This document shows positions 9,333-41,379 of a stretch of DNA of 43,918 nucleotides, piece after piece. The stretch's first letter is position 1. Each line of letters begins with the position of its first letter. Source of the stretch: an uncultured Anaerolineaceae bacterium (GTDB lineage Bacteria > Chloroflexota > Dehalococcoidia > Tepidiformales > Tepidiformaceae); the NCBI GenBank assembly GCA_964448165.1, contig CAYUVT010000001.1:10351-54268 (forward strand), in the 5' to 3' direction. The notes beneath the pieces were generated by a model. It saw nothing but the letters and a program-made list of their open reading frames with translations. It did no database searches and was not told the DNA's origin. Made by a program: the position numbers and the translations under genes.

Positions 9333-10304
9333 ATGAAACGGGTTGCCGTGCTAACCAGTGGCGGCGACGCGCCCGGGATGAACGCTGCGATACGCGCCGT
9401 CGTGCGGAGCGGCATTCACAATGGTTGGGAGCTGGTCGGCGTGCGACGTGGCTACGCCGGGCTCATGTCCGGCGAGTTCGTGCCGCTCCGTGCGAGGGAT
9501 GTCGGCGGGATCATCCACCAGCCAGGGACCATGCTCGGGAGCGCTCGAGCCGCTGGCTTCAGGACCGCCGAAGGGCGTGAACAGGCCATCGAGCAGCTGG
9601 ACTCTCACGGGATCGGCGGGCTGGTAGTGATCGGGGGCAACGGCTCGCAGGCGGGCGCCGCGGCACTTAGTGAGCTGGGCGTAGCTGTGGTTGGAATCGC
9701 GTCGACGATCGACAACGACCTCCATGGATCGGATCAGAGTATCGGGGTGGACACGGCGCTGAACATTGCGCTTGAAGCGCTCGATCGTTTGAGAGCTACT
9801 GCTTCATCCCACGAACGCGCTTTCCTTGTCGAAGTCATGGGCCGCGATTGCGGATATCTCGCGCTCGTCGCAGCTATCGCCGGTGGGGCGGAGGCTGTCG
9901 TCATCCCGGAAGTCGATCGCGACCCGGATTCCGTCGTGCAGGAGCTACAGGCGGCGTACGAGCGGGGCAAGTCCCACGGGCTGGTCGTAGTCGCTGAGGG
10001 AGCGAGGTATGACGCGGAGGCGATCGCGCGGCACGTCAGGGAGCACCAGGATCAGGTCGGCTTCGAGCTGCGCGTGACGAAGCTCGGGCATGTCCAGCGC
10101 GGCGGAACTCCCACCGTCTTCGACCGATTGCTGGCCACCCAGCTCGGTGCCGCCGCCATCGACCAGCTCCATCTCGGCGCCGCTGGCAGACTCGTCGGCA
10201 TCCTCGGCGGGCGAGTTGCCACGACCCCGCTTGGCGAGGTTGCGAGCAAGACGAAGGAGCTCGACCACGGCCTGCTTGAACTGGCCCGCGTCCTCGCAGA
10301 CTGA
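9333..10304 (+). CDS. pfkA: ATP-dependent 6-phosphofructokinase
   Basis: MKRVAVLTSGGDAPGMNAAIRAVVR, IGGNGS, TIDNDL, MGRDCGYLAL; 323 aa. Confidence 0.95.
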   Translation: MKRVAVLTSGGDAPGMNAAIRAVVRSGIHNGWELVGVRRGYAGLMSGEFVPLRARDVGGIIHQPGTMLGSARAAGFRTAEGREQAIEQLDSHGIGGLVVIGGNGSQAGAAALSELGVAVVGIASTIDNDLHGSDQSIGVDTALNIALEALDRLRATASSHERAFLVEVMGRDCGYLALVAAIAGGAEAVVIPEVDRDPDSVVQELQAAYERGKSHGLVVVAEGARYDAEAIARHVREHQDQVGFELRVTKLGHVQRGGTPTVFDRLLATQLGAAAIDQLHLGAAGRLVGILGGRVATTPLGEVASKTKELDHGLLELARVLAD

Positions 10305-10429
10305 GGGGAGGCGCGCCGCTGCTTACCCGGCCTGAGCCCGCAAACCTGCGGCACACGCTGGTGCTTCGGGGTCTGGCGCCCGTTCGCGAACCCAATCCTT
10401 CACTGACCGTCCACTGCCACGGACGCTTC

Positions 10430-10446
10430 TACGACTTATCGTCGTA
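10430..10446. promoter_or_regulatory. Operator-like dyad S6: TACGAC-N5-GTCGTA
   Basis: Perfect palindrome, 30 nt upstream of ATG 10476, followed by GAGAGGAG. Confidence 0.65.
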
Positions 10447-10475
10447 CGAAGAGATCCCCCCGAGAGGAGCAACCA

Positions 10476-10805
10476 ATGCTTCACCTGATCATCCGGCCGT
10501 TCATCCGGCTGCTGGCCACGAGCCCGGAGATCGAGCGGCTCCCCTTCGTGCAACGGCCGCGGACTATGGCCGCGACCTGGGCCGGGCTCCTCGTCTGCAA
10601 GGTCGGGGCAATGGTCCTGCTGTCGCCCGCGATCGGGGCAGAGCTATTCGTCGCGACGCTTGTCGCTGGGATCGCTGCGACGTACGTCCGCTTCGGCCTG
10701 GGGCGGTCAATCGAAAGGGTCAATGGGGCCACGACGAGCCGTGGTTCGAAGGCGACCAGCATCACCCAGTCGGCGAACCCACTCGCTTCGCCCGTGCGGG
10801 CGTAA
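10476..10805 (+). CDS. Hypothetical membrane protein
   Basis: Strong SD and operator upstream; hydrophobic core TWAGLLVCKVGAMVLL...FVATLVAGIAATYV. The C-terminal third looks low-complexity. An antisense ORF (10481-11059) shares wobble positions, so the 3' end is uncertain. Confidence 0.4.
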   Translation: MLHLIIRPFIRLLATSPEIERLPFVQRPRTMAATWAGLLVCKVGAMVLLSPAIGAELFVATLVAGIAATYVRFGLGRSIERVNGATTSRGSKATSITQSANPLASPVRA

Positions 10806-10959
10806 CTGCCGATGACGTAGGGGCCCTCCGGCATCTTCCCACGATCTGGGGCACATCGAGCCAAGTACCCGGTTGTGCGGAGAATCCGGCGACTCCTTCT
10901 CGCTGGAAACGGCCTCGCGGCGGTCATGCTGGCCGCCCAGGAAGGTGAGCGAATCGGCA

Positions 10960-12801
10960 TCACAGTGCATACGCGTGCTCGACGTATTGTTGCGCCATGC
11001 GATGCGCGTTGAAGAACGAACCATTGATGGCGATTGTCTGCTTCATGATGCGTGTCCACACGTCTGGGGTGCCGTAAAAGGCAGGCAGGACCGCATCCTC
11101 CAGCTTCGCGTATAAGTCCGCGCTGTCCGCGCGATCGGCCTCCTCCCCGTCCAAGGGATCGACCGCACCGATGGACCAGCCGGTGACACCCTCGACGTGA
11201 CCCTCACGCCACCAGCCATCGAGCACGCTGAGGCTCGGCACCCCGTTCAGCGCCGCCTTCATCCCTGAAGTCCCGGAGGCTTCGAGGGGCCGCAGCGGCG
11301 TATTCAGCCACACGTCGGCGCCGGCGGTGAGCTTGAGCGCGAGATCGAGGTCGTAGCCCTCGAGATACACGACGGGGAACTCTGCTCCGAGCCGTTCGGC
11401 GAAGGCCAGGACCTCGCGGATGACCTCCTTGCCTCCGCCGTCGTCCGGGTGGGCGATGCCCGCGAACACGAGCTGGAAGGGGCGGGTGCGCGCTATGGCG
11501 CGCAGGCGCTCGATGTCGCGAAAGATGAGGGTCGGACGCTTGTAGGCGGTTGCCCTCCGTGCGAAGCCGATGGTGAGGATGTTCGGATCCAGCCGGGCGC
11601 CGGCGCGGATCTCGGTTTCCTTGAGCAACGCACCCTTGGCTGCCACGTGGGCCGCCTTCAGTTCGGCATCTGGGAGCGCTGTCGCATTGCGGAGCATCCA
11701 GGGGTCGCTTCGCCAGCCGGGGATACGCCGGTCGAACAGCGCCTGGATGGGGCGGCTGGTCCACCGCTGCGAGTGCACGCCGTTCGTGATCTGATGGATC
11801 TCGTACTCGGGGAACATCGAACTCGAGACTTCGCGGTGGCGAAGGGCGACGCCGTTCACGTAGTGGCTGAGGTTCAGGGCGAGCGCCGTCATGTTGAGGT
11901 CGCCGCTCCCGGCCAGCATCTCCAGGACGGAGTCGTCGATGAAGCCCGGCAGGAGGTCGTGCAGCAGTGCACGGTCAAAGCGGTCGTGCCCGGCGGCGAC
12001 CGGGGTGTGCGTGGTGAACACGCAGCGACGACGTACGTCAGCGAAGTCCCACTCGCCGCCGCTCGCCACGCGCTGGCGCAGCAACTCCACCGGGACGAGA
12101 GCCGCGTGACCCTCGTTGAGGTGGAAGGTGGTCAGGCCGCTGCAGCCCAGAGCCTGGAGCAAGCGAACACCACCCAGCGCCAGCACGATCTCCTGCGCCA
12201 GCCGGTAGCGACGATCACCTCCGTAGAGGTGGTCTGTCAGCGTGCGGCTCCAGGCATCGTTCTCGGGATGATCCGTGTCGAGGAGGACGAGTGGCACGAC
12301 GTGCTCTCCAGACCCGACGAACGACGTTTGCCACCCGCCGACGTGGACGTCCTGGCCTTCGACCTGGACGGTGGTCTCGACTGGGAGTCGCTGGAGGGAC
12401 GCTTCAGGCGACCAGGGGGAGCGCTCGTCCTCCTGTGCTCCGTCCCGAAGGCGTTGTTTGACATACCCCATGTGGTGGACGAGCGAAACGCCAACCACGG
12501 CCACGCCGAGGTCGGCGCAGGCCTGCAGGTGGTCGCCGGCGAGGACGCCGAGGCCGCCGGCATAGGTCGGCGCGTTGGACCGGAACGCCACCTCCATCGA
12601 GAAGTACGCGACGCGGACGGAGGACCATGCGAGCGGGACTGCCGCGGTTCCAGGTCGACCGTAGGCGGCGCCGCGTCGCTCGAACTGGCGCCTGCAGAAC
12701 TCCGAGCAGAAGAAGAAGGTCTCGCCGTCCCTCTCCACTGGCAGCGCCGCCGCGGACTCGATCGGCATCTGGCAGACCGGGTCGGTGACTGTCATGCTCA
12801 A
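10960..12801 (-). CDS. glgP: Alpha-glucan phosphorylase (GT35) with N-terminal YHS/TRASH-like metal-binding domain
   Basis: N-terminus DPVCQMPIE...GETFFFCSEFCRRQFE. The core has FSMEVA...YAGGLGVLAGDHL and the PLP-lysine motif EASGTSGMKAALNGVPSLSVLDGWW. Confidence 0.9.
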   Translation of the reverse strand: MSMTVTDPVCQMPIESAAALPVERDGETFFFCSEFCRRQFERRGAAYGRPGTAAVPLAWSSVRVAYFSMEVAFRSNAPTYAGGLGVLAGDHLQACADLGVAVVGVSLVHHMGYVKQRLRDGAQEDERSPWSPEASLQRLPVETTVQVEGQDVHVGGWQTSFVGSGEHVVPLVLLDTDHPENDAWSRTLTDHLYGGDRRYRLAQEIVLALGGVRLLQALGCSGLTTFHLNEGHAALVPVELLRQRVASGGEWDFADVRRRCVFTTHTPVAAGHDRFDRALLHDLLPGFIDDSVLEMLAGSGDLNMTALALNLSHYVNGVALRHREVSSSMFPEYEIHQITNGVHSQRWTSRPIQALFDRRIPGWRSDPWMLRNATALPDAELKAAHVAAKGALLKETEIRAGARLDPNILTIGFARRATAYKRPTLIFRDIERLRAIARTRPFQLVFAGIAHPDDGGGKEVIREVLAFAERLGAEFPVVYLEGYDLDLALKLTAGADVWLNTPLRPLEASGTSGMKAALNGVPSLSVLDGWWREGHVEGVTGWSIGAVDPLDGEEADRADSADLYAKLEDAVLPAFYGTPDVWTRIMKQTIAINGSFFNAHRMAQQYVEHAYAL

Positions 12802-12831
12802 TCGCCTCCCCCGACTCCTTCTTGCGGTACG

Positions 12832-13416
12832 TCAGGCCGAAGCGGGCGAGGCTGTCGAACGGGCGGCGTGAGCCCGCGGGCCGATCAGCACGACCGGGAG
12901 GGGCGATTGCCGCATGACCTCCTCGGCGACGCTGCCCACGAGCGTATGCCTGATGCCGCTGCGTCCGTGGGTCCCCATCGCGATCGCGTCCGCGCCCAGG
13001 GCCTTGGCCGTCTCAAGGATGGCCTCCGCCGTGCGGTCGGAGAAATCGACGTGGATCGAGGCGCCTGCCCCCGCCAGGTCTCGAGCCGCTACCTGCCGCA
13101 GGTAGTCCTCTCGCTCGGATCGCGCCCGGGCAAGCGCTTGTCCCCGGTATTCGACAGTCATCGGCCGTTGATCCCCGACGGCGGCTCTGAGCCCGCCATA
13201 CTGGTCGCCACCGACCGCGGGGATGTGGCCTGGCTCTGTCCCCTCAGGCTCAAGAAACTCGGCGGAGCTCGACCGCTCGGCACGGCTATGAACCTCGTCG
13301 GGGTGAATCACCGAGAGAAGATGGACTTCCATCGTACCCGCGCGCGCCCAGGTCTCCATCGCGCGGGCCGCGCTCTCGCCGATCTCACTCATATCCAAGG
13401 CGACCAGGACTCGCAT
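12832..13416 (-). CDS. Universal stress protein (UspA family)
   Basis: ATG 13416 after AGGAGG. MRVLVALDMSE...GADAIAMGTHGRSGIRHTLVGSVAEEVMRQSPLPVVLI. Confidence 0.85.
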   Translation of the reverse strand: MRVLVALDMSEIGESAARAMETWARAGTMEVHLLSVIHPDEVHSRAERSSSAEFLEPEGTEPGHIPAVGGDQYGGLRAAVGDQRPMTVEYRGQALARARSEREDYLRQVAARDLAGAGASIHVDFSDRTAEAILETAKALGADAIAMGTHGRSGIRHTLVGSVAEEVMRQSPLPVVLIGPRAHAARSTASPASA

Positions 13417-13426
13417 GGCGAACCTC

Positions 13427-13654
13427 CTATAATTTGCTCGATCCCGTGTCGGCTGCAGCTGGAGGCGCGGCGGCTTCGGCCTCGCGCGCCGGGGCCGCTG
13501 CCGGTTGGGCGACAGGGTCGGTCTCGGCCAGTAGTTCCTTCTCCGCTGCGAGCCAGTCGTCGAGGTCGTGTCCGTCCGCGCAGCCACGCGCACAGTAGAG
13601 CTCGTACGCGCGTCGCTCGATCGCGCTCGGATCGACGAAAAGGTTCTCCGGCAT
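13427..13654 (-). CDS. DUF2934-family small protein with CARGC (CxxxC) variant
   Basis: RRAYELYCARGCADGHDLDDWLAAE matches the DUF2934 core (RAYxxW/YxxRG...D..DWxxAE). The ATG overlaps the upstream TGA (TGATG). Confidence 0.75.
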   Translation of the reverse strand: MPENLFVDPSAIERRAYELYCARGCADGHDLDDWLAAEKELLAETDPVAQPAAAPAREAEAAAPPAAADTGSSKL

Positions 13655-13872
13655 CAGCTTGCCCTCCTCCCTGGCATCGGGCTTATCGGTGTCTCGGCCC
13701 CGGGTAGAGCAGGGCTCGGGTCAGCCGGCGCCTGGAGCGCTTGTTCGCGGCAGGCTCGGCAGCGGCTGCGCATGGCGCGCCCGGATGCGACATCGACGAT
13801 CCAGGCGGCCGGGTGACCGCACGCGCCCCGGCGCTCGTTCCGTGAATCCTCACACCTGGGCACCTCCGGCAC
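13654..13872 (-). CDS. Small hypothetical protein (paralog of the N-terminal part of 33690-34190)
   Basis: GHPAAWIVDVASGRAMRSR aligns with GHKERVAWVVDLASRRIVRVD of the other locus. It has the same position relative to a DUF2934 gene and an N4 dyad. Start is uncertain (GTG 13872 or 13863). Confidence 0.3.
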   Translation of the reverse strand: MPEVPRCEDSRNERRGACGHPAAWIVDVASGRAMRSRCRACREQALQAPADPSPALPGAETPISPMPGRRAS

Positions 13873-13898
13873 CCAATCCCGACGCGCCGCCTGAAGTC

Positions 13899-13914
13899 TA
13901 CGACGGACGTAGGA
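13899..13914. promoter_or_regulatory. Operator-like dyad S7: TACGAC-N4-GTAGgA
   Basis: One mismatch. Heads the minus-strand string small ORF-DUF2934-USP-YHS-GlgP. Confidence 0.5.
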
Positions 13915-14046
13915 GGACGACAATTGAACATCGCGGGGACGGAGGACACGTCCGAATGCTCCGCCGCGAGGGGGCCGGGTGGACCAACTCCGACGGCCAC
14001 GGGGCAACGGCGTGGCACTGCGAGCTGATAACACCTTCGGCCCGGC

Positions 14047-14904
14047 TCAGGGCTGCGTCCGGACCAGCAGCACGGGTCTGTCCGCCGCCCGCATGACCGC
14101 GTCTGCGGTGCTTCCGAGGGCCAGGCGGCGCACGCCCCCGCGCCCGTGCGTGCCCATCACGATGATCCCGCATCCATGCCGGTCCGCGTAGTCGAGGATC
14201 ACGTCGAGCGGGCGCCCTTCGGCGACCGAGTGTGTCTCACCAGGGTGTTCTACTGCCCCGAGATACTCTTCGGCCCAGGCGGTCAGCTGTTCGCGGGCGT
14301 CATCTATGCCATAGGCGGGCCAGGGCATGCCGATCTGGCCGAGCAGGTCGACGGCCCGCAGCAGGTGGATCTCGGCGCCGAGCGCGGCCGCTAGATCGCG
14401 GGCTTCCGCCAGGGCAAGCTCCGCCGTAGCCGAGCCGTCGAGCGGCACGAGAATGCGAGCGACCGGGGGGCGACTCGAGGCGGGATGGACCACGAGCGCA
14501 GATCGTGTCGCCGTGCGGATCAGGGAGTCGGCGATGCTGCCCATGGTGAAGCGACGGAGGCCGCCGCGGCCGTGCGTCGTCAACGCCACAAGCCGAACGT
14601 CGAGCTCATCGACTGCGGCACGCAGCTCCGACTGGACGTGTCCTGAACGAACTTCCTCCGTCACAGCCACCCCAGCGAGGTCCGCCCGCTGAGCGACCCG
14701 ACGGAGGTAGGACCGAAGCTCCCCTTCGACCGCTCCGGCCACCGGCCGGTGATGAAGTGCCACTCGCTCCAACACGTGGTGGCCAGCGTCCCACACCGTC
14801 AGGAGCTTCACGGAACAGTCGTACGCGCGGGCGAGGTACGCAGCCCAGGGAAGCGCCTCCTCAGCCAGCGTCGACTCGTCCAGCGGTACCACGATCGTCG
14901 GCAT
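14047..14904 (-). CDS. Tandem-domain universal stress protein
   Basis: Two USP repeats, each ending in a G-2x-G-9x-G(S/T)-like motif (TTHGRGGLRRFTMGSIAD; GTHGRGGVRRLALGSTAD). Confidence 0.85.
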   Translation of the reverse strand: MPTIVVPLDESTLAEEALPWAAYLARAYDCSVKLLTVWDAGHHVLERVALHHRPVAGAVEGELRSYLRRVAQRADLAGVAVTEEVRSGHVQSELRAAVDELDVRLVALTTHGRGGLRRFTMGSIADSLIRTATRSALVVHPASSRPPVARILVPLDGSATAELALAEARDLAAALGAEIHLLRAVDLLGQIGMPWPAYGIDDAREQLTAWAEEYLGAVEHPGETHSVAEGRPLDVILDYADRHGCGIIVMGTHGRGGVRRLALGSTADAVMRAADRPVLLVRTQP

Positions 14905-34962: not shown

Positions 34963-36360
34963 TTAGCCGATGCAACAGGTCATTACCGAGACGTCGCGGG
35001 TGAAGGCCTGCGCAGCAAGCTTTATCGCCTCCGAGTACGTCGGAAAGACGTGCACCGTGTCGATAATGTCGTAGATGCTGAGGCCGTGCCGGATCGCCAG
35101 CGTGGCCTCGTGGATGATCTCGGCGGCATTGGTGCCGCATGCGTACGCGCCACGGACGCGGTTATCCCGGTCGATGGTGAGCTTCACCGCACCCACGGTG
35201 TCCTTCACGGCCATCGCCCTGGGGACCTGGGAATACTGAACCGTGCGGCAGTTGCAGTAGCCGGTGCGGGCCATCGACTCGGCTTCCGTCAGCCCGACGC
35301 CGGCCAGTTGGGGTGAGGTGAAGACTGCCCAGGGCACGGCATCGTAGTTCAATGAGTCGCGCCGGCCGTCAAGCGCGTTGGCAGCGGCCAACGCCCCTTC
35401 CTTGGCCGCCACGGTTTCCAGCGGCATGCGCCCGGTCACGTCACCGGCCACCCAGAGGCCGTGACCGGCCTCGTACCAGTTCGTGGTCTCGATGAATCCC
35501 GTCCTGGTCACCCGTCCACTCGCGTTCTCGAGGCCCAACTCCTCGGTGTTCGCCCGAATGCCTGTCGCCACCAGGATGGCGTCGGCCTCGAAGCAATCGC
35601 TGGCCTGCGGCCCGCACACGACGGTCTTCGGTGGTCCTGGCTGGACCCGTTCGATGCGCATGCCCGTTCGGACCGTGATCCCTTCGGCTTCGAGGGCCTC
35701 CTGCAGGACCGCCGCGATCTCCGGTTCGGCCTTCGGGACGATCTGCGGCAGTGCCTCGAGGACCGTCACCTGAGAGCCGAAGCGGGCGAAGACCTGGGCG
35801 AACTCCAGGCCCAGCGGCCCGCCGCCGATCACGACGAGCTTCCCGGGTGCCTCGTCGAGTTGGAGCGCTTCAACGTTTGTAAGGTAGCCGGCGTCCGCGA
35901 GGCCGGGGATCGGCGGGATGCTGGCCTGGCTGCCCGTAGCGACCAGGATGTGGCGGCCTTCGATCACCTCGCCGCCAACGTCGACTTTCCCCGGCGCGAC
36001 GATGCGGCCCCGGCCCTCCCGGAAGTCCACATGGTCGAGCGACCGGAGGACCTCCTCATAGTTCCGGTGACGAAGGCCTGCTACGAGGGCGTCCTTCTCC
36101 TCGCGAGCGGCTTTGACCGAGAAGTGGCCGTTCGGGCTCGCCGGATGCACCGAGTCGAAGGCGGAGCGCCTGGTCGCCACCAGTGCCTCGGCGATTCCGA
36201 GCAGGTGCTTGGACGGCACGCAGCCAACATTGACGCAGGTGCCGCCGAGCGGCAGCCCCGCGTTGACCATCAGCGCTGTCGCGCCCAGGTCGTTCGCTTT
36301 CGTGGCAGCTGCGAAGGCGGCTGCCCCTCCGCCGATGATCACGAGATCGTAGGCAGTCAC
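34963..36360 (-). CDS. merA: Mercuric reductase (core enzyme, no NmerA domain)
   Basis: DLVIIGGGAAAFAAA, redox-active GGTCVNVGCVPSK, C-terminal vicinal Cys MTCCIG. Confidence 0.9.
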   Translation of the reverse strand: MTAYDLVIIGGGAAAFAAATKANDLGATALMVNAGLPLGGTCVNVGCVPSKHLLGIAEALVATRRSAFDSVHPASPNGHFSVKAAREEKDALVAGLRHRNYEEVLRSLDHVDFREGRGRIVAPGKVDVGGEVIEGRHILVATGSQASIPPIPGLADAGYLTNVEALQLDEAPGKLVVIGGGPLGLEFAQVFARFGSQVTVLEALPQIVPKAEPEIAAVLQEALEAEGITVRTGMRIERVQPGPPKTVVCGPQASDCFEADAILVATGIRANTEELGLENASGRVTRTGFIETTNWYEAGHGLWVAGDVTGRMPLETVAAKEGALAAANALDGRRDSLNYDAVPWAVFTSPQLAGVGLTEAESMARTGYCNCRTVQYSQVPRAMAVKDTVGAVKLTIDRDNRVRGAYACGTNAAEIIHEATLAIRHGLSIYDIIDTVHVFPTYSEAIKLAAQAFTRDVSVMTCCIG

Positions 36361-36818
36361 ACTGGCACCTCCGATTGGGGTTGGATGGACTCGGGCTCAC
36401 GGTCGACGATCCCGACGCAGTCACAGGGATTGAGCGTGAGCAGGCGGTGATCGTCGGGCTCGATGCCGCGGAGCCCGGCCGCGAGCGAGGCCAGCTGTTG
36501 CTCCGCTCTTTCGAGCTCACGTAGCCGCGCCTGGACTCTGGTCACGAGGCCGTCAGTCGCGTCGATCAGCGCTTCGCGCATCTCCCGGCAGCTGCCGTCG
36601 TGGTAGATACGAATCAGCGTCGACATCTCCGCCAGCGAGCAGCCCAGCTCCCGTAGCCGTCGCGCGAACCGGAGGGTTTCCAGGTGTTGGTCGCTGTACT
36701 CGCGGTACCCGCTCGTACCACGAGGCACGGCGGGGAGGACACCGGCCCGCTCGTAGTAGCGGATGGTGTCGGCTGAGAGGCCGGAGGCGTCCGCTGCATC
36801 TCGAATCTTCAATGGCAT
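36357..36818 (-). CDS. merR: MerR-family metal-responsive activator (Hg-type Cys pattern)
   Basis: IRDAADASGLSADTIRYYERAGVL HTH. Cys in DGSCREM and, after the coiled coil, NPCDCVG. The stop overlaps the merA start by 4 nt. Confidence 0.85.
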   Translation of the reverse strand: MPLKIRDAADASGLSADTIRYYERAGVLPAVPRGTSGYREYSDQHLETLRFARRLRELGCSLAEMSTLIRIYHDGSCREMREALIDATDGLVTRVQARLRELERAEQQLASLAAGLRGIEPDDHRLLTLNPCDCVGIVDREPESIQPQSEVPV

Positions 36819-36824
36819 GGTGCC

Positions 36825-36855
36825 AGCGTAAACATTGGAGTAACTCCAAGGTCAA
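36825..36855 (-). promoter_or_regulatory. MerR-type promoter: TTGACC, 19-bp spacer with perfect dyad, then TACGCT; leaderless merR
   Basis: Minus strand: TTGACC (36855-36850), 19-nt spacer holding TTGGAGT-a-ACTCCAA (36835-36849), TACGCT (36830-36825), then 6 nt to ATG 36818. Confidence 0.7.
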
Positions 36856-36947
36856 GTGGCTGCCTAAGGAGGTGCGCACCGCCGGTATGCCCGCGCCAGC
36901 TTCCGCGGTCGGGTTTGCGGCATCAGATGCCGAAGTGGATACTTCAC

Positions 36948-36963
36948 TACGACGTGCGTAGGA
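36948..36963. promoter_or_regulatory. Operator-like dyad S14: TACGAC-N4-GTAGgA upstream of FAD oxidoreductase
   Basis: One mismatch; the right half merges into GGAGGAG. Confidence 0.5.
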
Positions 36964-36990
36964 GGAGATGACTGGCTACCACCCGCGGGA

Positions 36991-38288: not shown

Positions 38289-41279
38289 TCAGGCGCCAAT
38301 GTACCGCTTCGGGTCAGCCATGAACTTGTCGTGGCAGGCCTGTGAGCAGAAGTAGTAGGTCTTACCCTCGTGCTCCATTCTTGCCGCGGCGGTGTCCGGG
38401 TCGATGTCCATCCCGCAGACCGGGTCCTTGACGGTGGTTGGGGTTGCCATGTCGCTACCTCCCGGGTCAAATGTTGCTTCGCGTGTTGCTTCGCGCACCT
38501 CGACGGTGGGCGCCGAGATGGCATGGCTGCTGGTTGGTCCCGCGAGCGGCGGGACGCGGTAGGTCCTGAGCCGGTTGGCGTTGGCCACAACGGAGAGCGA
38601 GCTGAGCGCCATCGCGCCGGCGGCGATAATGGGGCTCAACTGCCACCCCAGGAACGGATAGAGCACGCCGGCCGCCACCGGGATGCCGACGGTGTTATAG
38701 AAGAATGCGAAGAACAGGTTCTCGCGGATGTTTCGCATCGTGCTCCGGCTCAGCGAGACGGCCGTGACCACGCCTTTGAGCTCACCTGAGATAAGGGTGA
38801 TGTCCGCCGCTTCGATGGCGACATCCGTCCCGGTGCCAATGGCGAAGCCGACGTCCGCCTGGGCGAGGGCGGGCGCATCGTTTATCCCATCTCCCACCAT
38901 GCCGACGAGCTTGCCCTCGTCCTGGAGCCGGCGGACTTCGAGGGCCTTGTCCTCGGGCAGGACCTCCGCAAGGACTCGGCCGATACCCACCTCCCGTGCG
39001 ATCGCCTCCGCGGTCCGCCGGTTGTCCCCGGTGATCATGACCACCTCGAGCCCGAGCTTCTGGAGCGCGGCGACGGCGGACCGGGAATCGTCCTTCACGG
39101 TGTCCGCGACCGCGACCAGCCCGGCCGGCGCTTCGTCGACGGCGACGAGCATCGGCGTCTTGCCTTCGCCGGAGAGGCGCTCGGCGTCCGATTCGAGGGT
39201 CGCGACATCGAGCCCGGCATCGGCCAGGAGCCGCCGGTTGCCTACGAGCAGGCGATGGCCGTCCACCGCGACCCGTATCCCTTTGCCGGTGATCGACTCG
39301 AAGTCGGACGACTCGGTGAGGTGCAGGTCGCGGTCTTCGGCTCCTCGCACGATGGCCTGGGCGAGGGGATGCTCGGACGAACGCTCCGCCGAGGCAACGA
39401 GCTGAAGGAACTCGGCCTCGGCAAGTCCATTGCGGACGACGATGTCGGTCAGCGCTGGCTGGCCGCGGGTGATTGTTCCCGTCTTGTCCAGGATCACGGT
39501 CTCGAGCTTGTGTGCCGTCTCCAGCGCCTCGGCGGAACGGATGAGGATGCCGTTCTCGGCGCCCTTGCCCGTACCCACCATGATGGAGAGCGGTGTGGCC
39601 AGGCCGAGCGCGCAGGGGCAGGCGATGATCAGCACCGAGACGGCACTCACCAGGGCGAACGTGAACACCGGATCCGACCCGAAGTCGTACCAGACCACGA
39701 AGGTGGCGATAGCGATGAAGATGACGGCCGGCACGAAATAGCTGGCGGCCAGGTCGGCGAGGCGCTGGATGGGCGCCTTCGAACCCTGGGCCTGCTCCAC
39801 CAGACGGATGATCTGAGAGAGCATTGTGTCCTTGCCGACCCTGGCAGCGCGGAAGCGAAAGGCGCCCGTCTGGTTGATGGTTGCACCGATGACGGTGTCC
39901 CCCGCCTCCTTGGTGACGGGCAGCGACTCGCCGGTGACCATGGATTCGTCGATGCTGGAGCGCCCCTCGACGATCTCTCCGTCCACCGGGATCTTCTCGC
40001 CCGGGCGCACGAGCACCACGTCCCCGGGCACAACGTCCTCGATTGGCACCTCCTCCTCCCGGCCATCGCGGATCACCCGGGCCGTCTTCGCCTGCAGGCC
40101 GATGAGCTTGCGGATCGCCTCGCCGGTGCCGGCTTTGGCGCGCGCTTCGAGCAGGCGTCCGAGGAGGATGAGCGTGAGGATGACACCGACCGCCTCGTAG
40201 TAGACCTCGCGCAGGTCCTCGGGGAGGAGACCCGGCGCGGCGGTCACGATCAGGCTGTAGGTGAAGGCCGCGATCGTCCCGACCGTGATCAGGGTGTTCA
40301 TGTCGGCGGTGCGATTGCGGAGGATGAGCCAGCCAGTGCGGTGGATCGGCCAGCCGGTGTAGGCCATTACCGGGGCGATGAGCGCGAGCTGGAACCAACG
40401 GTTGAGCAGGAAGTCGGGGATGGAATCGACGCCGAATAGTTCATGGAGCATCACCGTTGCCGCGACGGGCGTCGTGAGAATCGCCCCGAAAGCCACGCGC
40501 CGCGTCAGGTCACGGATCTCGGCCTGGCGGGCGAGCGCTTCGGCGTCCTCGGTCTCCTGCGAGCCCGGCTCGGTGCGCTCTCGGACCCTGTAGCCCGACG
40601 ACTCGATGGCTGACTTCATCTCCGCCACCGAGACCTGCTCGGGGTCGAATGTCACGGTCACCCGCTCTGCGGCGTAGTTCACGTCCACGCGGTCAATGCC
40701 CGGGAGTTGCTCGACAAACGACTCGATGTTCGTGACGCATGTCGGACAGGTGACACCTCCGCCAATCAGCGCGAACTCCACTTGTGCGAGCTCGCCGATC
40801 TCGACCGTCGGGCCTACGCCGACCGCCTTCGCGACCTCGTGCGTGTGGCCGTCCTCCGCGCCGGTGATCGGCGTAGCATCCGCGGCCGGCGCGTCGCCGG
40901 CCATGGCTCCCTCCACGACGATCGTGCCGTGCACCATGTTCATACCGCACGCGAAACCGAACTGCCCCGCGCGGTCCGGCGTGAACTCGACCGATGTCTT
41001 CTGGAATGCCGGGAGCGATTTACTGATCCGGAAGTCCGGGAAAACCACACGGGAGGTGCAGTCGCTGCCTTCCTGGCGGTCGAAGATGAGACGTACCGGG
41101 ACGCCCTGCTGGACATGGATCAGGCTGGGCGAGTAACCGCCCTTGACGGTGACCTCGACCTCCTGGACGCCCCCGCGGAGCTCCGCCCGGCGGGCTTGCT
41201 TTGGCCCGAAGAAGAACCAAGCCAGGAGGGCGATGATGCCGGCGGCCCCGGCGGTTACGAGGATCTCGTCGACGCTCAT
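38289..41279 (-). CDS. copA: Cu(I)-exporting P1B-1 ATPase with TM plus cupredoxin-like domain, HMA domain and C-terminal YHS/TRASH domain
   Basis: ATG 41279 after AAGGAGG. N-terminal TM, then [11 protein letters not shown]...[25 protein letters not shown]; TM6 [13 protein letters not shown]; DKTGTIT; [11 protein letters not shown]-terminus DPVCGMDID...[12 protein letters not shown]. Confidence 0.95.
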
Positions 41280-41379
41280 CGGCTCTGCCTCCTTACCCTG
41301 TAGACCTTGTCTTCGGTCGACTCCTTCGGTCCCGTCGCTCAATCGGACGAGAACGGACACGCCTCGGGCCCTTCCATCG

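What the first reader, a model, noticed from the sequence alone, without database searches (positions are those of the whole stretch)
10960..12801. YHS/TRASH metal-binding domain fused to an alpha-glucan phosphorylase
The first ~45 residues (DPVCQMPIESAAALPVERDGETFFFCSEFCRRQFE) have the YHS/TRASH Cys pattern. The same pattern is seen at the C-terminus of copA in this window (DPVCGMDID...[12 protein letters not shown]). The rest is a complete GT35 phosphorylase with the PLP-lysine motif.

The gene ends an operon headed by dyad 13899 (small ORF, DUF2934, USP, GlgP). A metal-sensing module on a glycogen-mobilising enzyme would link storage-glucan breakdown directly to metal status.
Basis: partly seen in the sequence, partly recalled or inferred. 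Interest (0 to 1): 0.6.

Follow-up and report, generated by a model that had tools for sequence, protein, structure and literature searches.

The report
Metal-binding domain fused to glycogen phosphorylase
A glycogen-degrading enzyme in this genome really does carry a small cysteine-rich metal-binding domain at its front end; the same fusion recurs in many uncultured bacteria, often beside copper pumps, which suggests but does not prove that metal (probably copper) status controls the breakdown of stored sugar.

Summary
ORF 10960-12801(-) encodes an N-terminal YHS/TRASH domain (Pfam above cut-off; Asp-Cys...Cys-x3-Cys) joined by about 17 residues to a complete short alpha-glucan phosphorylase (TIGR02094, with the PLP lysine). 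The start codon (ATG 12795, GGAGG 9 nt upstream) lies before the Cys motif.

The fusion is a conserved subfamily, not a one-off. More than 100 protein clusters and 83 metagenome contigs carry it. Asp, three Cys and one Met are invariant while the rest of the domain drops to about 30% identity.

In this genome it is an accessory second phosphorylase. The housekeeping long GlgP sits beside glgA elsewhere. No ortholog was found in 23 congeners or in 300 genomes of the phylum.

It ends a tight DUF2934-USP-GlgP unit. That unit lies behind a TACKAC-N4-GTMGTA dyad, which also precedes copA and the BlaI/CopY-type repressor.

Elsewhere, copper P1B-ATPase genes sit directly next to YHS-GlgP and in the same direction in at least five contigs. 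Cupredoxin and FtrD-like genes recur too.

The best reading is a metal (probably copper) responsive regulatory module, at 0.45. The main rival is a structural zinc finger. No paper searched describes this fusion. Earlier scan notes on this same window described the dyad regulon; none treated this protein.

The parts
10960..12801 (-). YHS-GlgP coding sequence. The ORF is listed from TTG 12801; the likely start is ATG 12795, giving 611 aa; the stop codon is 10960-10962.
   Evidence: The 94%-identical homolog P0002 is 611 aa and begins MTVTD.
12805..12809 (-). Shine-Dalgarno GGAGG, 9 nt before ATG 12795
   Evidence: sequence read
12667..12789 (-). YHS/TRASH domain, residues 5-45. Putative ligands are D7, C10, C32 and C36; M12 is also invariant.
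   Evidence: Pfam. Genome-wide Pfam search gives 40.1 bits. Invariant columns. Fold matches.
12613..12666 (-). Linker, residues 46-63; lower model confidence and poorly conserved outside the near clade
   Evidence: pLDDT 64-70; alignment
10966..12612 (-). Alpha-glucan phosphorylase core (TIGR02094), residues 64-612
   Evidence: structure model pLDDT above 90 over most of the core; Foldseek TM 0.85 to 9L6I
11257..11259 (-). Codon of K515, the pyridoxal-phosphate lysine in EASGTSGMK
   Evidence: invariant column K515
12832..13416 (-). Universal stress protein gene, directly upstream and co-transcribed by geometry (36-nt gap)
   Evidence: Pfam Usp; start read
13427..13654 (-). DUF2934 gene, first Pfam-annotated gene of the unit (10-nt gap to USP)
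   Evidence: Pfam; sequence
13899..13914 (.). Dyad TACGACGGACGTAGGA, one mismatch to TACKAC-N4-GTMGTA, in the 392-nt gap upstream of the unit
   Evidence: The same motif family lies before the repressor gene (8118), copA (41380) and others.

Best explanation
This is a genuine, conserved two-domain enzyme. A minimal pyridoxal-phosphate alpha-glucan (glycogen or maltodextrin) phosphorylase carries an N-terminal YHS/TRASH domain on a short linker.

Inferred: the YHS domain binds one thiophilic metal ion, most likely Cu(I), through Asp7, Cys10, Cys32 and Cys36, possibly with Met12. It acts as a regulatory input. Metal occupancy changes how the small domain sits against the catalytic core or the oligomer, and so changes phosphorolysis.

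In this genome the enzyme is an accessory isoenzyme. It is made together with a universal stress protein and a DUF2934 protein. The transcription unit lies behind the same BlaI/CopY-type operator that precedes copA and the repressor gene.

Glucan mobilisation, feeding the neighbouring PfkA and glycolysis, would therefore be tied to metal stress twice: at transcription and at the enzyme.

Shown: the fusion, its start codon, ligand invariance, the fold, the accessory status, operator sharing, and recurrent adjacency to copper ATPases. Inferred: metal binding, which metal it is, and any effect on activity.
For: Fusion and start codon.

Subfamily size:
- 106 of 107 near homologs keep the first Cys; F31, C32, F35 and C36 are invariant.
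- 83 metagenome stretches match the fusion-spanning DNA pattern.
- 68 called ORFs of about 600-625 aa carry the motif at the extreme N-terminus.

Ligands: across 64 N-termini that share only 26-45% identity with this one, the invariant residues are exactly D, C, M, F, C, C. These include the Asp + 3 Cys proposed as ligands by Linder 2015 and Ettema 2003 (PMC4626032).

Precedent: the YHS domain of the M. phlei adenylyl cyclase confers a specific, EDTA-reversible activation by Cu2+ (PMC4626032).

Origin: the core-only tree puts 62 of 64 YHS+ rows in one group (SH-like support 93). Two further fusions, L008 and L064, sit elsewhere, so the fusion arose or was acquired more than once.

Context here:
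- Dyad 13899 belongs to a motif family of 8 N4 sites (1.25 expected) and 8 N5 sites (0.04 expected). These sites precede the repressor gene, copA and others.
- The window holds two TIGR01511 copper ATPases.

Context elsewhere:
- Copper-type P1B ATPases (TIGR01511 above cut-off) lie directly adjacent and co-directional in L176, L184, L191 and L218.
- In L008 the order is CopA, Cupredoxin_1, YHS-GlgP. These five contigs span three lineages.
- Cupredoxin_1 genes occur in 10 loci and FtrD-like genes in 6.
- Any metal-type neighbour occurs in 19 of 87 YHS+ loci (557 kb), against 8 of 76 YHS-less control loci (890 kb).

Accessory status: the long GlgP lies beside glgA on contig C7. There is no ortholog in 23 congeners. 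There is none in 300 genomes of the phylum, a tally that includes the unpublished genome G077 as one negative. There is no DNA synteny with congeners.
Against: No metal-binding or activity data exist for any member.

The closest solved YHS relatives are the phenol hydroxylase alpha subunit, L24e and the toluene monooxygenase alpha subunit. In these the site is structural, or empty according to PMC4626032.

Copper-ATPase adjacency is about as frequent for YHS-less short phosphorylases: 7 of 76 loci against 8 of 87. The neighbourhood therefore speaks for the enzyme family, not specifically for its YHS domain.

One YHS-GlgP subclade sits in USP / phosphoketolase / HtrA / Mg-ATPase islands, mostly without copper genes.

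Loci are related to one another, so the counts are descriptive and not a test.

This protein has Gln where at least 90% of homologs have Gly after the first Cys.

The model gives no information on docking of the domain.
Confidence: 0.45

Rival explanations
1. Structural zinc finger. The YHS/TRASH domain binds Zn permanently. It only stabilises the minimal enzyme or mediates its oligomerisation, standing in for the N-terminal helical domain that longer TIGR02094 enzymes have. There is no sensing.
For: The best sequence and fold matches among solved structures are the phenol hydroxylase PHN domain (E 1e-5; Foldseek prob 1.0, TMq 0.66), L24e and the MYM TRASH finger. The TRASH family is classed among treble-clef structural zinc fingers (PMC4999995). 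The enzyme lacks the accessory domains of ScGP (aligned only to 109-709 of 852), so a small stabilising module is plausible. Most short-type relatives work without any N-terminal domain, so the extra domain need not be regulatory.
Against: The ligand set is Asp + 3 Cys with an invariant Met, not the four-Cys set I recall (from memory, not checked here) for structural Zn sites. Core-only relatives of about 550 aa are abundant, so the core does not need a stabiliser. Recurrent adjacency to copper ATPase and cupredoxin genes, and the shared operator, are unexplained by a purely structural role.
Confidence: 0.3
2. Thiol/redox switch. The Cys3 site, with or without Zn, is oxidised under oxidative or copper-induced thiol stress, or reduced under hypoxia. 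This toggles the phosphorylase as part of a general stress or dormancy programme.
For: Neighbours here are USP proteins (four in the window), PfkA, PPK2, a GH65 phosphorylase and CBS-domain proteins. A whole subclade lies in USP-phosphoketolase-HtrA-MgtA islands. PfkA recurs near YHS-GlgP in four other contigs.
Against: In the only tested YHS enzyme, copper acted by reversible binding and not by oxidation (PMC4626032). Nothing in the sequence separates a redox switch from a metal switch. The invariance of Asp and Met is not expected for a pure disulfide switch.
Confidence: 0.15
3. Interaction or delivery module. The YHS domain docks onto a partner (a copper ATPase, a chaperone or a cupredoxin), or it buffers or hands over Cu(I). 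The phosphorylase is merely the carrier.
For: Several neighbouring copper ATPases carry their own YHS domains (L172, L178, L184, L012, L031), as does this window's CopA. TRASH relatives include metallochaperone-like proteins (PMC4999995).
Against: There is no evidence of any partner. A 550-aa enzyme is an odd carrier for a chaperone function. The fusion is kept in lineages with no copper gene nearby.
Confidence: 0.1

Closest known systems
YHS-domain adenylyl cyclase of Mycobacterium phlei (Linder 2015, PMC4626032)
   Same: A YHS domain with the Asp + 3 Cys set is fused by a short linker to a cytosolic enzyme. The domain is required for specific, reversible activation by copper.
   Different: There the domain is C-terminal and the enzyme is a class III cyclase. 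Here it is N-terminal on a GT35 phosphorylase. No biochemistry exists for the phosphorylase fusion.
Segatella copri glycogen phosphorylase ScGP, 'clade 2' GP (PDB 9L6I; PMC12912991)
   Same: It is the nearest solved homolog of the catalytic part (phmmer E 2e-85, Foldseek TMq 0.85, 32% identity). It belongs to the same non-canonical GP branch as TIGR02094. Its regulation is by accessory features and oligomeric state, not by phosphorylation.
   Different: ScGP has 852 aa with an N-terminal alpha-helical domain and a C-terminal beta-sheet domain. It forms pentamers and AMP-induced decamers. The window protein aligns only to residues 109-709, lacks both domains and has YHS instead.
Phenol hydroxylase alpha subunit PHN (PDB 2INP) and toluene monooxygenase alpha subunits; ribosomal protein L24e
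   Same: These are the solved proteins whose YHS/TRASH segment matches the N-terminal domain best by profile (E 1e-5 to 0.06) and by fold.
   Different: In those proteins the segment is an internal or stand-alone structural element with no known sensing role. According to PMC4626032 no metal is seen in the toluene-4-monooxygenase domain.
YHS domains of copper P1B-ATPases (e.g. this window's CopA, 38289..41360)
   Same: Same Pfam family and the same DPVCGM...FCS..C signature. They occur in the same genome and the same dyad regulon.
   Different: They sit on a membrane pump, usually beside HMA domains. Their own role is also unproven.

Membership tests
YHS domain (Pfam PF04945) / TRASH | Match to the family HMM above the curated cut-off | tested here: met
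   35.4 bits against a cut-off of 30.3, residues 5-45; 40.1 bits in the genome-wide search
YHS domain (Pfam PF04945) / TRASH | Cys pattern C-x19-22-C-x3-C (Ettema 2003), with a conserved Asp three residues before the first Cys (Linder 2015) | tested here: met
   D7, C10-x21-C32-x3-C36 read. D, C, C, C are invariant in 64 diverse fusion N-termini.
YHS domain (Pfam PF04945) / TRASH | Small beta-hairpins-plus-helix (treble-clef-like) fold resembling solved members | tested here: met
   The model of residues 4-58 has pLDDT 84-88 over the domain. The top Foldseek matches are PHN 2INP, L24e, ToMO/T4mo alpha and MYM TRASH 2DAS. Probabilities reach 1.0 but E-values are only 0.07-0.5 because the domain is tiny. 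The profile against PDB gives PHN at E 1e-5.
YHS domain (Pfam PF04945) / TRASH | Binds a transition metal | not testable with these tools
   Needs ICP-MS or metal titration of purified protein.
GT35 alpha-glucan phosphorylase, TIGR02094 branch | Full-length match to the family model above cut-off | tested here: met
   523.4 bits against 191.7, model positions 1-599 of 600
GT35 alpha-glucan phosphorylase, TIGR02094 branch | PLP-binding lysine and conserved catalytic motifs | tested here: met
   K515 in EASGTSGMK, HLNEGH, TTHTP and RR..YKR are all invariant or at least 90% conserved in 107 homologs
GT35 alpha-glucan phosphorylase, TIGR02094 branch | Phosphorylase two-domain fold | tested here: met
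   AF2 model has mean pLDDT 89.2. Foldseek gives 9L6I/20YR at E 1e-46 and TMq 0.85, then classical GPs.
GT35 alpha-glucan phosphorylase, TIGR02094 branch | Phosphorolysis of alpha-1,4-glucan; substrate preference (glycogen versus maltodextrin) | not testable with these tools
   Enzyme assay needed. The Thermococcales MalP equivalog model scores far below its cut-off (396 against 1500).
ScGP-type 'clade 2' GP architecture (PMC12912991) | N-terminal alpha-helical domain and C-terminal beta-sheet domain | tested here: not met
   The alignment covers only residues 109-709 of the 852-aa chain. The window protein ends with the core.
Copper-sensing YHS enzymes (works-like comparison, not a sequence family) | Metal-dependent change in catalytic activity that requires the YHS domain | not testable with these tools
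   There is only contextual support: a shared operator with copA and copA adjacency in L008, L176, L184, L191 and L218.

The most novel reading that the evidence does not exclude
A widespread and old clade of minimal glycogen phosphorylases is switched directly by Cu(I) binding to an N-terminal YHS domain. Copper islands in many phyla would then carry their own metal-gated fuel-mobilising enzyme. Together with spare glycolytic enzymes such as PfkA, it would keep substrate-level ATP and reductant supply going when copper disables iron-sulfur-dependent metabolism.
Probability: 0.3. Interest if true: 0.7.

Novelty: new variant of a known kind. Interest (0 to 1): 0.55.

Why it matters
Known controls of glycogen phosphorylases are phosphorylation, AMP and sugar-phosphate allostery, HPr binding and oligomeric state. 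A metal-binding input domain would be a further, untested mode.

The fusion is common in environmental bacteria and some archaea. It has escaped annotation: sources name these proteins simply 'alpha-glucan family phosphorylase'.

Its repeated placement beside copper pumps, cupredoxins and stress proteins points to a link between metal stress and use of carbon reserves. A simple enzyme assay could test this.

It would also give a second biochemical test case for the poorly understood YHS domain.

Tried and rejected
Complex prediction (YHS residues 1-62 against core 63-613, with Zn riding along) scored 0.00, which is no verdict. I draw nothing from it.

The contigs of the closest protein hits (P0002, P0003, P0010 and others) could not be fetched, so I used a DNA pattern scan of metagenome contigs instead.

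The profile search through the genome search reports only the best local stretch, so it cannot by itself show absence of YHS. I rechecked all loci with a local HMM built from the YHS columns.

L015's tblastn alignment from residue 6 is not a YHS domain; it has no Cys motif.

I first read the dyad as CTACG-N5-CGTAG and suspected a MerR operator, because a copy lies next to merR. I rejected this. The merR promoter has its own perfect dyad TTGGAGTaACTCCAA at 36838-36852. The 13899 site fits the TACKAC-N4-GTMGTA family.

The consensus promoter and terminator scan of 10300-14150 found nothing, which is uninformative for this GC-rich organism.

The Synechocystis copper transcriptome shows glgP repressed by high copper (PMC4182526). 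That is a different, canonical enzyme and is not comparable.

The representative-library search is dominated by gene fragments, so it gives only a rough lower bound for the number of fusion clusters.

I did not verify the organism's taxonomy. 'Chloroflexi' comes from an earlier scan note.
Full report
WHAT IS THERE

The minus-strand ORF 10960..12801 has two parts.
- Residues 5-45 match the Pfam YHS domain above its curated cut-off (35.4 against 30.3 bits). A genome-wide search gives 40.1 bits.
- Residues 64-612 match NCBIfam TIGR02094, 'alpha-glucan family phosphorylase'. The match covers 599 of 600 model positions at 523 bits.

The cysteines are spaced C10-x21-C32-x3-C36, the TRASH pattern, with Asp7 three residues before the first Cys.

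The listed TTG (12801) is probably not the start.
- ATG 12795 has GGAGG 9 nt upstream.
- It gives a 611-aa product like the 94%-identical homolog P0002.

An internal Met12 exists, and some database gene calls of homologs begin there. However, Asp, Pro, Val and Cys before it are conserved at the protein level in all complete homologs. The domain is therefore translated.

The large plus-strand ORF 11449..13707 is an antisense artefact of the 67% G+C content.

THE CATALYTIC PART

The PLP lysine (K515 in EASGTSGMK) and the other family motifs are invariant.

The AlphaFold model is confident: mean pLDDT 89.2, and above 90 over most of the core.

The nearest solved structure is the Segatella copri glycogen phosphorylase 9L6I (TMq 0.85, 32% identity). 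That enzyme has an N-terminal helical domain and a C-terminal beta-sheet domain, and it is regulated through pentamer-decamer assembly (PMC12912991).

The window protein aligns only to residues 109-709 of it and has neither domain. It belongs to a 'core-only' type of about 550 aa that is common in genomes, here with YHS added.

THE YHS PART

- A separate model of the N-terminus (pLDDT 84-88 over the domain) finds the solved YHS/TRASH members as its best structural matches. These are the phenol hydroxylase alpha subunit 2INP, L24e, the toluene monooxygenase alpha subunits and the MYM TRASH finger.
- A profile of 64 fusion N-termini finds the same proteins by sequence (PHN at E 1e-5).
- Across those 64 N-termini, which share only 26-45% identity with this one, the invariant positions are D, C, M, F, C, C. 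These are the Asp and three Cys proposed as metal ligands (PMC4626032), plus a Met and a Phe.

This is strong purifying selection on the site itself.

HOW COMMON IS THE FUSION

- The protein search returned 8000 relatives. The best 120 (56-94% identity, full coverage) are nearly all fusions.
- 106 of 107 aligned sequences keep the first Cys.
- A DNA pattern spanning both domains (FC[ST][ED]FC, 26-35 codons, YF[ST]ME) hits 83 metagenome stretches. In 68 of the 80 loci fetched a fusion ORF was called, about 600-625 aa where complete, with the motif at the extreme N-terminus.
- In the 50%-identity representative library, at least 24 of the top 150 representatives have one alignment spanning YHS and the start of the core.
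- Named carriers include Dehalococcoidia, Blastocatellia, Thermoanaerobaculia and Vicinamibacterales. Others are Ignavibacteriales, Brocadiaceae, a deltaproteobacterial MAG and Bathyarchaeota.
- A tree of the core alone puts 62 of 64 YHS-bearing rows in one group (SH-like 93). Two of the five 'YHS-less' rows inside it are contig-end truncations.
- L008 and L064 fall among YHS-less enzymes, so the fusion arose or was transferred more than once.
- No paper in the searchable library mentions YHS together with a phosphorylase.

STATUS IN THIS GENOME

- The assembly has a second, long (about 870 aa) TIGR02094 phosphorylase beside glgA on contig C7, and glgB on C6.
- All 23 congeneric genomes searched have only the long form.
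- In 300 genomes sampled from the phylum, only this genome's match includes the YHS region. That tally includes the unpublished genome G077 as one of the negatives.
- The 9 kb around the gene has no DNA-level synteny in congeners.

The YHS enzyme is therefore an accessory isoenzyme, probably acquired. Its sister is P0003 at 65-67% identity.

LOCAL CONTEXT

The gene is last in a tight minus-strand unit: DUF2934 (13427..13654), USP (13416..12832), then GlgP, with gaps of 10 and 36 nt.

The dyad 13899-13914 lies in the 392-nt gap upstream. It matches TACKAC-N4-GTMGTA with one mismatch.
- The N4 form occurs 8 times (at most 2 mismatches) against 1.25 expected.
- The N5 form occurs 8 times (at most 1 mismatch) against 0.04 expected.
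- Sites lie before the BlaI/CopY-family repressor gene (8118), copA (41380), the ppk2 unit (16663), the GAPDH / copper-ATPase / KorAB unit (33446), and the membrane-protein gene just downstream of GlgP (10430).

I confirmed the Pfam identities of these genes. Both P-type ATPases of the window pass the copper-ATPase model TIGR01511.

Earlier scan notes on this window read the repressor-protease pair as a PetR/PetP-like copper switch. I confirmed the dyads and the gene identities but not the copper trigger.

The window also holds four USP genes, PfkA, PPK2 and a GH65 phosphorylase. The unit could therefore equally be called part of a general stress programme.

CONTEXT ELSEWHERE

In 87 YHS-GlgP loci (557 kb):
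- Copper-type P1B ATPases occur in 8.
- They are directly adjacent and co-directional in L176, L184, L191 and L218.
- In L008 the order is CopA, Cupredoxin_1, YHS-GlgP in a tight row.
- Cupredoxin_1 genes occur in 10 loci and FtrD-like genes in 6, usually in one upstream ABC/FtsX cluster.
- The Ignavibacteriales genome has ten YHS matches, eight of them, including its YHS-GlgP, on one contig.
- Overall 19 of the 87 loci hold a metal-type neighbour. This compares with 8 of 76 longer control loci (890 kb) around YHS-less relatives.

Three cautions apply.
- Loci are related to one another, so these are descriptive counts.
- Copper-ATPase adjacency alone is as frequent in the controls (7 of 76). 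Several of those control ATPases carry YHS domains (L012, L031).
- One YHS-GlgP subclade lies in islands of USP, phosphoketolase, HtrA and an MgtA-type ATPase (TIGR01524), mostly without copper genes.

PfkA recurs near the fusion in four further contigs.

HOW IT MOST LIKELY WORKS

My preferred reading (0.45) is that the YHS domain is a metal-responsive input, most likely for Cu(I), on an accessory phosphorylase.

For it:
- The ligand set (Asp, three Cys, an invariant Met) suits a thiophilic ion better than a classic four-Cys zinc site. This is an inference from general coordination chemistry.
- A YHS domain has been shown to turn on an adenylyl cyclase specifically and reversibly with copper (PMC4626032).
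- The gene neighbourhoods point the same way.

A physiological rationale would be that copper damages iron-sulfur enzymes, so cells fall back on glycolysis from stored glucan. This is my inference, not a result.

Rivals:
- The main rival (0.30) is a permanent structural zinc finger, as in the closest solved relatives.
- A thiol redox switch (0.15) fits the USP-rich stress context.
- A partner-docking or copper-handover role (0.10) is possible.

Nothing computed here tells which metal binds, or whether it activates or inhibits.

VERDICT

It is a new variant of known kinds (GT35 phosphorylase plus YHS domain) and of moderate interest.

Noticed in passing
L012, L029, L031, L057, L079, L080 (genome-contig loci): Short TIGR02094 phosphorylases without a YHS domain also sit within 6 kb of CPx-type heavy-metal ATPases. 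In L012 and L031 the ATPase itself carries one or two N-terminal YHS domains, and L035 has a 64-aa YHS protein nearby. The enzyme family as a whole seems to travel with copper pumps.
   Followed up: partly
L169, L199, L203, L204, L209, L214, L178, L195 (metagenome loci): A conserved island holds USP, an unknown 417-aa protein, phosphoketolase (XFP), HtrA, a small membrane protein, YHS-GlgP, an MgtA-type P-type ATPase, a MerR-family regulator and an ABC-2-like permease. It looks like a stress or low-energy survival module.
   Followed up: partly
L160, L164, L179, L187, L200, L157, L151 (metagenome loci): A second conserved context lies upstream of YHS-GlgP on the same strand: an FtrD-like membrane Fe-S protein, FtsX/MacB permease, ABC ATPase, a Cupredoxin_1 protein and an unknown protein of up to 222 aa (many calls shorter).
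   Followed up: partly
G340 contig C57, about 37-99 kb (genome of L001, Ignavibacteriales MAG): Eight YHS-domain matches lie within about 60 kb. They include the YHS-GlgP, an 899-aa ATPase-sized frame and several 68-150-aa frames. HMBD and FtrD-like genes lie next to the phosphorylase.
   Followed up: partly
window 13898-13917 and 36947-36966: The two sites share CTACGACGnnCGTAGGAGGA on the plus strand (18 of 20 bases). The dyad runs straight into a Shine-Dalgarno-like GGAGGA. At 13898 that orientation is antisense to the GlgP unit.
   Followed up: no
window 36838-36852: A perfect 7-1-7 dyad TTGGAGTaACTCCAA lies just upstream of the merR-family gene 36357..36818(-). That gene is followed by a pyridine-nucleotide disulfide oxidoreductase (34963..36360), a MerA-like pair.
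   Followed up: partly
window 9333-10304 and L166, L167, L173, L201: A PfkA gene with a nearly identical N-terminus ([25 protein letters not shown]...) lies near YHS-GlgP both in the window (convergent, 650 nt away) and in four unrelated metagenome contigs.
   Followed up: partly
G000 contig C7, 4273-9183: The housekeeping glgA and the long (874-aa frame) TIGR02094 phosphorylase lie side by side. This long form is the one shared by all 23 congeners.
   Followed up: yes
L161, L164, L167 (metagenome loci): A 90-98-aa protein resembling a CBM48/AMPK-type glycogen-binding module (GGFNNWD...RYEYRF) recurs downstream of YHS-GlgP. This is judged by eye only, with no HMM run.
   Followed up: no
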